From the human T2T-CHM13v2.0 reference genome, Homo sapiens: 64,000 nucleotides of DNA. The translations under genes and the position numbers were made by a program. Below are positions 55,201 through 58,200 of this stretch, piece by piece. The first letter of the stretch is position 1. Each line of letters begins with the position of its first letter. A model generated the notes under the pieces. It saw only the letters and a program-made list of their open reading frames with translations, had not been told where the DNA came from and did no database searches. The DNA lies in assembly GCF_009914755.1 (NCBI RefSeq), contig NC_060943.1; one strand, 5' to 3'.

Positions 55201-58200
55201 TGGAAGTTTTCAGGTGCTGGGAAGAAGAGGCAACTATCCAAAGAAGGGAATCTTTGGATAGTTCTTCTCAATGTAGAACACAAGTTGAGAGGGACCCTCC
55301 ATCTGCTGCTCCCCTCTCTGAAGGGGTTTCAGGGTGGGCTGCAAGCCCCAGATTGTGTGGAGAGCCGTGAGGGTGTGTCTGGGATACGGTGGGTCTGGGG
55401 CTACATGCAGGACTGAGTATGTGAGCCCTTGGCATATCACGTCCCCGAGCTCACAGGACCGTTGCCCCAGAAGACAAGAAAGCATTGAGTTGTACATATT
55501 TGTTGGGAGGGCCATTGAGAAGAGAACCAAAGAGGGGCACCTTGCTCCTTCCTCAAGCTCCCTCCTGACCCTCGGGGGAGAAATGAGAGAGAACCCTGGA
55601 GACTCAAAGGGATGCTCTAGTATCTTCCTAATCTCTGGAAGATGAATCCCCACGGAAACTGAATACCTGGGGCTTCTGTCCACCTGGATTAATGCGTCTC
55701 TAAAGGAGTAAAGTCTCAAAGAAGCATCTCGAGTCACCCACCCTGGGCCCCAGCCTATCGCATTAATCTGGAAGACACTTTATTTCTCTTTTTTGGGAAG
55801 ATCTGTTTTGAGAACCACAGGGTGGGAGGAGCTAGGAAGAAGGCGTTATTAATTTCTTCCTTTTCCTCTCCTCTCCTTCCTTCCTTCCTCCACTGCTGCC
55901 CAACAATGCCCACTGGATCTTCTGCTCCTGGCATCTCATCTCAACAGCACTGAAACCTAAGAGTCTTGTTTCACATTTGACCCCTTCTGTTTTGCTCCTG
56001 TTCTCATCTCTGCCAAGGGAGGTCCACTCTTAGCCATGGATCAACTCTCAGCTTTTGACCATCTTTTTTTTTTAAACTCAAGAACTGGGAAAAAATAGCT
56101 ATATTACCATCATCTTCAAATAGATGGGATGTCTCATGGAAACCAATCCCTCCTCGAATCAGGCATTCATGTAATGCCATGATGAGGATGGTGATGACAG
56201 TGATGGAAATTTACAAAGAGCTTTCTAGGTGCCAGGCGCGAGGCACCAGAGCAGCACTTTTCAATGTGTTATGTGTAGTTATTCCCCACAACTTCTTCAC
56301 AAGGCAAGTATTATTCATCTGCACTTGACTGAGGTATAAAGGTTAGGTAACTAGATCAAGACTGGGCATCCCAGCGGTGACGGTGGGTTACGGATCCTGG
56401 GCTGCGTGACTCAGCTGCTTAACCACGGTGCTGTGCTTCCTCCCACTGCTGTGTGGCTCAGACTTATTTTCCCCAAGAACATCTCTGACCATTTCATCAT
56501 GCTGTTCCCTGAAAAAGTCACTGTTTGCCACATGTGGGTAACATACATCTTTTAAAAAGTCTTGAAATTGTAGTAAAATATACAAAACATGAAATTTACC
56601 ATTGTAACTTGTTTTCATTTTTTAGAGACAGGATCTTGCTCTGTTGTCCAGGCTGGAGCACAGTGGTGCAGACCTCCTGGGCTCAAGCGATCCTTCTTTC
56701 TTAGCCTCCTGAGGAACTGGGACTACAGGTGTGCATCATCACACCTAGCTAATTATTTTTGGTTTTTTTGTCTGTTTTTACTTTTTTTTTTTTTACTTTT
56801 TTGTTTTGCTTTGTTGCCAAGGCTGGTCTTCAATTCCGGGGCTCAAGCAATCCTCCTACCTCAGCCTCCCAAAGCACTGGGATCACAGGCACGAGCCACT
56901 GCACCCACCTTAACCACTTTAAAGTGTGCGATTTAGTGGCCCTTGGTACACACACAATGGTGTGCAACCATCACCACTGACTCCAGAACTTTATAATCAC
57001 TGCCCCACCAAAAAAAAAGTACCCATTAAACAGTCAGTCCCCATTCTCCCTCTGACCTCAGCCCCGGCAACCACCATTTCACTTTCTGTCTCTGCAAGTT
57101 TGAGGATTCTAGGTACCTCATAGAAGTAGAATCGTACACGATGTGGTCTTTTGTGTCTGGCTTCATCACTCAGCACAGTGTCCTCAAGGTTCAGCCACAT
57201 TGTGGCCTGTGACAGTGCTTCACTCCTTTTCATGGCTGAGCAATACTCCATTGCATGGATAGACTGCATTTTTTAATCCAATCATCCACTGATTGAATTT
57301 TGGGTTGATTCTACCTTTCGGCTGAGGACACACTCTTCTTTTGGTCCACATTCAAAGCCATCTAAACCCCAGTTCTGAGACACCATCCTGTCCATGCCCC
57401 ACACCCACCTCCAAACCCCACTTCTATGCAGCTTGAGCCTCAGTGAAACCCAAGACATCCTGATCTGAAAAAACAAATTGAAAAATGGTATCCTGCAGCT
57501 CAAGAGCACGTTCTGGGTACCAGGCATGGTTGTTAAGTGCTTGACTCATGACAGTCCCCAAGTCATCGTCCTTGTTTTACAACTGAAAACACTGTGGTAA
57601 GAGAGGGAGAGTCGCTTGCTCATGGTCACACAGCCAGTCAGGTGCAGAGAATAACTTAAGCCCAGTCTGGATCCCAAACGGTGCTATTAAACAATGCAAA
57701 CTCAAAAGTGTTCAAAGCGGCTCAGACTAACGAGGTCCCTGCCTCATCCCTACACTGGAAGTATTATCATTATAATTGTATGTTGTATATATTGTAAGGA
57801 AGATAAAATTATGCTAAGAAAGGGAAAGAGGAACTGGCAGAGAGTGTGCACTGTGGGCGCCGGTCCTGACTGCACCACTTTCTAGTTCCGTGGGCTTCGG
57901 ACCCTCGCCTCCTGAAGGGCTCAGGCCCCTGGTCGGTACAATGCACATAATAGTTCCAGCCTCATATGGTTGTGAGGAGTAAACAGGATCATGCACTTGG
58001 CAGGATGATTCCCAATTGGGGAGATTTCGCCCCTCAGGGGACACCTGGCAATGCCTAGAGATATTTTTGGTTGTGAGGACTCAGGGAGGTGGTAGGGGAG
58101 GCTAACGGCATCTAATGGGGGGAGTCTCGAGATGTTGCTACACATCCTACAATGCACAGGACACCCCACCCCCACAACAAAAAAACTATCCAGCCCCAAA

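What the first reader, a model, noticed from the sequence alone, without database searches (positions are those of the whole stretch)
55905..55965. Fossil microexon: module 2's copy of exon 4 was silenced by a donor mutation
Seen: at the position predicted by the duplication (779 nt after the 6-nt exon 9, versus 793 nt for exon 3 to exon 4) lies cccactgg...caacag|CACTGAAAC|ctaag. This mirrors exon 4, cccactgg...caacag|TGCTGAAAG|gtaag. The acceptor is intact but G|GT has become C|CT. It accounts exactly for the 3-aa gap in protein repeat 2. Inference: lineage-specific loss of a 9-nt exon that may still be active in other mammals.
Basis: partly seen in the sequence, partly recalled or inferred. 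Interest (0 to 1): 0.7.

Follow-up and report, generated by a model that had tools for sequence, protein, structure and literature searches.

The report
Dead nine-base exon in human EDDM13
A nine-base exon that adds three amino acids to the epididymal protein EDDM13 in macaques, mice and many other mammals is still visible in the human gene but lacks its splice signal, likely through a single base change; a 2019 paper already noted this loss, and it likely matters little.

Summary
Real, and already in print. The 9-mer at 55948-55956 has an intact CAG acceptor and CT where GT should be. It is the orthologue of a live EDDM13 exon. 24 clean protein records from 22 mammal species, including rhesus macaque, carry the three extra residues. 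Intron read-through in serow and rat models maps to this acceptor, rank 1 of 857. Mudge et al. 2019 (Suppl. Fig. S3A legend) already say that mouse has an extra 9-bp exon lost in human by splice-site mutation. One donor change (+1), not two, likely killed the exon. Flanks alone are not significantly like exon 4's. Added here: the paralogy with exon 4, and a loss likely after the macaque split. Ape records cannot date it further. Mouse and sea-lion models also skip the exon, the helix stays amphipathic, and mouse knockouts are fertile, so the effect is likely small. Interest 0.2.

The parts
55948..55956 (+). Dead 9-nt phase-1 microexon of EDDM13 (between annotated exons 9 and 10); would read T-L-K-Q across its junctions, orthologues read I/V-L-K-Q/R/K
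   Evidence: Mudge et al. 2019 legend
55957..55962 (+). Inactivated donor: CTAAGA; CT at +1/+2, +3 to +5 still AAG as in exon 4's donor
   Evidence: simple weight matrix: -3.4 bits as is; 6.6 bits with a consensus +1
55890..55947 (+). Intact acceptor region: pyrimidine-rich tract ending in CAG, no other AG in the 60 nt upstream; orthologous to the flank read through in serow and rat models
   Evidence: (4.9 bits versus 6.9 for exon 4)
46821..46829 (+). Live paralogue, exon 4 (9 nt, L-L-K-G across junctions) of module 1
   Evidence: annotation
55164..55169 (+). Exon 9 (6 nt), upstream neighbour; paralogue of exon 3
   Evidence: 0 of 1000 shuffles reach the exon 3/9 score
60282..60290 (+). Exon 10 (9 nt), downstream neighbour; paralogue of exon 5; joined directly to exon 9 in the annotated human mRNA, the junction codon giving Lys
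40419..49350 (+). Module 1: exons 2-6 (18, 6, 9, 9, 27 nt), first helical repeat
53197..60685 (+). Module 2: exons 8, 9, dead exon, 10, 11 (18, 6, [9], 9, 27 nt), second helical repeat
55170..55947 (+). Former intron between exon 9 and the dead exon; homologous to intron 3 (46029-46820)

Best explanation
The 9 bases at 55948-55956 are the remains of an EDDM13 microexon that macaque, mouse and many other mammals still translate; in human its donor reads CT instead of GT, likely from one G-to-C change after the split from macaques, so the exon is predicted to be always skipped and the protein's second helix is three residues shorter, likely with little effect. How it works, step by step. (1) Shown: EDDM13 has two modules of phase-1 microexons (18, 6, 9, 9, 27 nt), and the dead exon fills the third slot of module 2. 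(2) Inferred: the modules come from a duplication older than the split of primates, rodents and laurasiatherians, since all carry both repeats. (3) Shown on proteins: other mammals have I/V-L-K plus Q/R/K here. (4) Inferred from codons: the ancestral exon ended in C, which makes a middling donor (6.6 bits, against 11.0 for exon 4). (5) Shown: the human +1 is C. Established knowledge: neither spliceosome uses a CT donor. (6) Inferred: with no donor the tiny exon is not defined, exon 9 joins exon 10, and the frame is kept because 9 is a multiple of 3. (7) Inferred: the exon's first base also changed (Ile/Val codon to Thr), as expected once selection lapsed. (8) Inferred: fixation was near neutral, because a skipped form likely existed already.
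For: Human/mouse alignment with the 3-aa gap, and the authors' statement of loss by splice-site mutation with full-length mouse cDNA support. 29 of 128 stored proteins match the included pattern; 24 of them are clean and come from 22 species: 3 primates, tree shrew, 6 rodents, 4 bats, 4 carnivores, 4 artiodactyls. The macaque record reads MKILKQILG and lacks exon 7, so it is not a copy of the human model. Back-translated intron read-through of the serow model picks acceptor 55948 at rank 1 of 857 (20.4 versus 10.4 for the next); rat also rank 1 (12.7 versus 11.9); a mouse exon-4 read-through control picks exon 4 at rank 1 and the fossil at rank 306. All 9 GT sites with a positive donor score within 400 nt downstream would bring a stop into the frame. 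Hydrophobic moment of repeat 2 is 0.28 without the exon (orangutan record) and 0.27 with it (macaque). Mouse and sea lion have models both with and without the exon. Epp13 knockout mice are fertile.
Against: No non-human DNA was available, so a GT in orthologues is inferred from proteins and from the paper. No human RNA data were examined, and the human model had only partial intron support in 2019. 87 of 128 stored proteins are uninformative, mostly mis-modelled microexons. 9 of the 12 clean skipped records are non-apes (snub-nosed monkey, bamboo lemur, rabbit, horse, pig, 2 mouse, 2 sea lion), so a skipped record does not prove loss, and the date leans on one macaque record. The rat rank is a thin margin. 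The splice scores use approximate base frequencies that I recalled. Fertility of knockout mice says nothing direct about this exon in primates.
Confidence: 0.87

Rival explanations
1. The exon died first by other changes (weaker acceptor or lost enhancers), and the +1 change is later decay.
For: At least one more change lies inside the exon (first base). The acceptor scores lower than exon 4's (4.9 versus 6.9) and the inferred ancestral donor was middling. Skipped models exist in mouse and sea lion.
Against: The acceptor region is still recognisably conserved against serow and rat, has no competing AG in 60 nt and scores above live exons 5 and 10 (-1.1 each); +3 to +5 of the donor are intact.
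Confidence: 0.07
2. The exon is not fully dead: the acceptor is used at low level with a nearby weak donor (GT at 55963, which would give a 15-nt in-frame exon), or some people carry GT at +1.
For: The acceptor is intact, and a GT lies 15 nt from it in frame.
Against: That GT scores at or below zero (not among the sites printed). No human or ape record among 128 stored proteins shows such an insert. Both this assembly and the one used by Mudge et al. lack the splice site.
Confidence: 0.04
3. The match is chance, and the exon of other mammals was deleted in human or lies elsewhere.
For: Flanks alone are not significantly like exon 4's; the exon 12 neighbourhood scores as high. BLASTP of the read-through frame found no alignment to the serow or rat model.
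Against: Core 16 of 20, reached by 10 of 2000 shuffles; predicted place in a homologous intron; serow and rat flanks map to this acceptor at rank 1 of 857; it would encode L-K-Q as in macaque.
Confidence: 0.02

Closest known systems
EDDM13/Epp13 extra 9-bp mouse exon (Mudge et al. 2019, PMC6886504, Suppl. Figs S3A and S4E)
   Same: The same event: a 9-bp exon present in mouse and lost in human by splice-site mutation; the alignment shows the same 3-aa gap.
   Different: In the passages I saw the paper gives no coordinates, no base change, no species beyond mouse and no link to an internal duplication.
Species-specific exon loss by weakened splice sites (Wang et al. 2015, known to me only through the review PMC12992808)
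   Same: An exon kept in mouse and monkey, silent in human, with its sequence still in the intron (describes the class).
   Different: A 9-nt exon in an epididymis-restricted gene, and it may have been a cassette rather than constitutive. I could not check whether that study lists it (not held).
TNNI3 exon 3 loss and CMAH exon loss (as summarised in PMC12992808)
   Same: Lineage-specific loss of a coding exon; TNNI3 is also lost in some lineages and skipped in others.
   Different: Those have a described phenotype. CMAH was an Alu-mediated loss that abolished gene activity. Here the frame is kept and no phenotype is known.
SRRM3/4-regulated neural microexons
   Same: Size under 30 nt, frame-preserving.
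   Different: EDDM13 is expressed in epididymis and its microexons build most of the protein's two repeats; no evidence here of neural regulation.

Membership tests
Lineage-specific exon loss by splice-site mutation | Exon is translated or spliced in outgroup species | tested here: met
   24 clean records from 22 species among 128 stored proteins; mouse cDNA support stated
Lineage-specific exon loss by splice-site mutation | Orthologous sequence is still present in the genome that lost it | tested here: met
   serow and rat flanks map to 55948, rank 1 of 857, with a working control
Lineage-specific exon loss by splice-site mutation | An essential splice dinucleotide is broken | tested here: met
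   CT at 55957-55958, AG intact
Lineage-specific exon loss by splice-site mutation | Outgroup DNA has the intact dinucleotide | not testable with these tools
Lineage-specific exon loss by splice-site mutation | Exon is absent from human transcripts | not testable with these tools
   absent from the supplied RefSeq model and the GENCODE protein; no RNA reads examined
Lineage-specific exon loss by splice-site mutation | Exon is constitutive in outgroups (strict form of the class) | tested here: inconclusive
   mouse and sea lion have predicted isoforms both with and without it; these may be real skipping or model error
Internal exon-module duplication | Colinear paralogous exons of equal length and phase | tested here: met
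   pairs 2/8, 3/9, 5/10 reached by 0 of 1000 shuffles, 4/fossil by 3, 6/11 by 28; pair 7/12 not similar (368 of 1000)
Internal exon-module duplication | Homology extends into introns | tested here: met
   intron 3 versus first part of intron 9; flanks of exons 2 and 8 at 69% over 110 nt
SRRM3/4 neural microexons | Neuron-specific inclusion controlled by SRRM3/4 | not tested
   gene is epididymis-specific by CAGE; no reason found to file it here

The most novel reading that the evidence does not exclude
The donor change is human-specific or still polymorphic, and it fixed under selection because a helix one turn shorter changes how this epididymal protein binds sperm or a partner: a one-base, human-lineage change in a reproductive protein that a minigene and ape genomes could test directly.
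Probability: 0.06. Interest if true: 0.55.

Novelty: already known. Interest (0 to 1): 0.2.

Why it matters
As biology it matters little: a known kind of event, noted in 2019, in a gene whose mouse knockout is fertile. It is a tidy teaching case of one base silencing a microexon next to a live paralogue. It also shows that human-guided gene models in other species likely drop this exon wrongly. It would matter more only if the loss proved human-specific and selected.

Tried and rejected
Flank-only similarity to exon 4 as proof of paralogy: not significant. The shared octamer as an anchor: out of register by 11 nt. BLASTP of the read-through frame against serow and rat models: no alignment, and a tblastn of the 128 stored proteins on intron 9 listed neither at the fossil among its 25 best rows; only the anchored DNA-level test worked. 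Dating with ape proteins: 0 of 7 ape-labelled records include the exon, but only 3 are clean skips, 2 gibbon records look mis-modelled and 2 lack the region; a search aimed at the repeats found no further ape record. Structure: AlphaFold2 models with the exon (bat, mean pLDDT 43.7) and without (orangutan, 45.6) are too weak to compare; both only suggest helices over the two repeats, so no fold search was run. Pfam: no family at its cut-off for 4 proteins. ESM Atlas: no usable hit. Other dead paralogous exons in the gene: none stood out in a scan with 11 exon contexts. A second copy of the fossil region elsewhere in the genome: none, 1 match. Wang et al. 2015 could not be read. Earlier scan findings were not open. 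No complex prediction was run, as no partner is claimed.

Full report
Observation. The window holds exons 1-12 of human EDDM13. Joined, they read as a signal-peptide-like start and two related repeats, KEKINLLKGIIGLMSRL and EEEIK---KILGLLSLQ. All internal exons are multiples of 3 and in phase 1.

Chance. The 20-mer around exon 4 matches the site at 16 of 20 positions, the best non-self match on either strand of the window; 10 of 2000 shuffles of intron 9 reach that. The flanks alone are not significant (198 and 633 of 1000 shuffles), the shared octamer is out of register, and the exon 12 neighbourhood aligns as well as exon 4's. The duplication itself is well supported: exon pairs 2/8, 3/9 and 5/10 beat all 1000 shuffles, 6/11 is reached by 28, and 7/12 shows nothing. 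Intron 3 aligns end to end with the stretch between exon 9 and the fossil: 0 of 200 shuffles reach the score, 1 of 344 real segments beats it, and in the reverse search intron 3 is the best of 338 segments. The one better segment holds a recent 82-bp copy. So the paralogue argument is real but modest; the orthologues decide the case.

Orthologues. Three protein searches stored 127 records; one search listed 120 of its 154 hits. With my own translation of the site that makes 128 proteins classified: 29 match the included pattern, 12 are clean skips, 87 are uninformative. I set aside 5 of the 29 (rodent models with a garbled exon 9), leaving 24 records from 22 species: rhesus macaque, ring-tailed lemur, slow loris, tree shrew, 6 rodents, 4 bats, 4 carnivores and 4 artiodactyls. 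The macaque record reads EEEMKILKQILG and lacks exon 7, so it does not copy the human model; that it derives from a transcript is my inference from this and its name. Two predicted models (serow P0104, rat P0123) run through the intron into the exon. Their upstream peptide, back-translated and aligned without the exon and without the CAG, picks the acceptor at 55948 first among 857 candidates (20.4 versus 10.4 next; 12.7 versus 11.9 next). A mouse model that runs into exon 4 picks exon 4 first and ranks the fossil 306th. This ties the human DNA to the live exon of other mammals independently of the paralogue. Plain BLASTP missed it.

Which base killed it. In phase 1 the exon's last base starts the next codon. 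Joined to human exon 10, C gives Gln, A gives Lys, G gives Glu; joined to exon 11, only C gives Arg. The residue after LK is Gln in 13 of 29 records, Arg in 11, Lys in 4, Glu in 1; three of the Arg records (lemur, serow, rat) are joined straight to exon 11. So C is the likely ancestral last base, assuming the neighbouring exons begin as in human. All 24 clean records start the insert with Ile or Val, which needs T as the exon's first base; human has C, a second change inside the exon. With approximate, recalled base frequencies the donor would score 6.6 bits with a consensus +1, like live exon 3 (6.7) and below exon 4 (11.0).

Mechanism. A CT donor is not used by either spliceosome (established knowledge). 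All 9 positively scoring GT sites within 400 nt downstream would bring in a stop, and the GT 15 nt on scores at or below zero. Skipping joins exon 9 to exon 10 in frame, as in the annotated transcript. Repeat 2 loses three residues, a little under one helical turn; its hydrophobic moment is about unchanged (0.28 without, 0.27 with; 0.23 and 0.30 for the two sea-lion forms). Structure models were too weak to use. Mouse and sea lion have predicted isoforms both with and without the exon, so human likely fixed a form that already existed. Epp13 knockout mice are fertile with normal histology. Near-neutral fixation is the simplest reading; it is inferred, not shown.

Date. The exon is present in the macaque record and in none of 7 ape-labelled records. 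Only 3 of those are clean skips, and clean skips also appear for snub-nosed monkey, bamboo lemur, rabbit, horse and pig, likely because such models follow the human one (inference). Clustering at 90% identity can also hide an ape form that has the exon. The loss is therefore bracketed only to the human side of the macaque split. The second change in so short a stretch favours an older, ape-wide loss over a human-specific one (inference).

What is known. Mudge et al. 2019 (PMC6886504): I saw main-text passages on EDDM13 and supplement passages from files 4, 7 and 9; files 1 and 8 were not searched. [quoted passage not shown]' S4E shows the gap. PMC6688925: passages on the knockout. PMC10266198: passages on caput expression. 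PMC12992808: passages defining exon loss and its examples. bioRxiv 10.1101/2025.05.06.652571: two passages on a non-coding EDDM13 isoform, not on this exon; its supplements are closed and were not seen. Wang et al. 2015 was not available, so I cannot say whether it lists this exon. Six searches listed no paper devoted to this exon, to the internal duplication or to the macaque state; apart from the papers named I saw only listings, and most subscription papers are not held.

Verdict. The event is already in print and belongs to a known class. Novelty: already known. Interest 0.2.

Noticed in passing
window 46365-46446 and 48594-48675: An 82-bp stretch occurs twice at 93% identity, in intron 3 and intron 5 of EDDM13, and a genome search found only these two places. 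The intron 3 copy is slightly closer to the paralogous part of intron 9 (score 25 versus 17), and intron 5 minus this copy and a masked 315-bp repeat is 390 nt, near the 368 nt of its paralogue intron 10. Likely a short local copy from intron 3 into intron 5, far younger than the module duplication.
   Followed up: partly
window 42579-42602: The 24-nt exon of 'other transcripts' lies in a masked repeat (42419-42751) and reads TSQVAGII, exactly replacing the 24 nt of exons 3-5. The same peptide is in the human/bonobo X1, siamang and (in part) Hylobates records. Likely an aligner artefact that swaps three microexons for one repeat-derived stretch; gibbon IAEITG in place of exons 9-10 looks like the same error.
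   Followed up: partly
window 46821-46829 and 48528-48536: Exons 4 and 5 (both 9 nt) match at 17 of 23 positions with their splice sites, a hint of an older single-exon duplication inside the module.
   Followed up: no
window 52708-52761: Exon 7 (54 nt, spacer between the repeats) is missing from the macaque record and several others, so it may be a cassette exon; it shows no similarity to exon 12.
   Followed up: no
L002 and L003 (window coordinates about 66280-66420, 69096-69134, 73840-73866): Exons 13-15 lie beyond the window and encode a hydrophobic helix and a cysteine-rich tail that are the most conserved part of the protein; no Pfam family.
   Followed up: no
L002/L003 (window coordinates about 70524-70942 and 71759-72341): Tandem arrays: one with a period near 84 nt at 89-96% identity, and a second, looser one.
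   Followed up: no
window 58417-58563: A 60-bp direct repeat at 97% identity inside intron 9.
   Followed up: no
window 56280-56315: The start of a horse model (P0115) matches this intronic stretch at 10 of 12 residues, showing that the intron just after the dead exon is conserved with horse.
   Followed up: no
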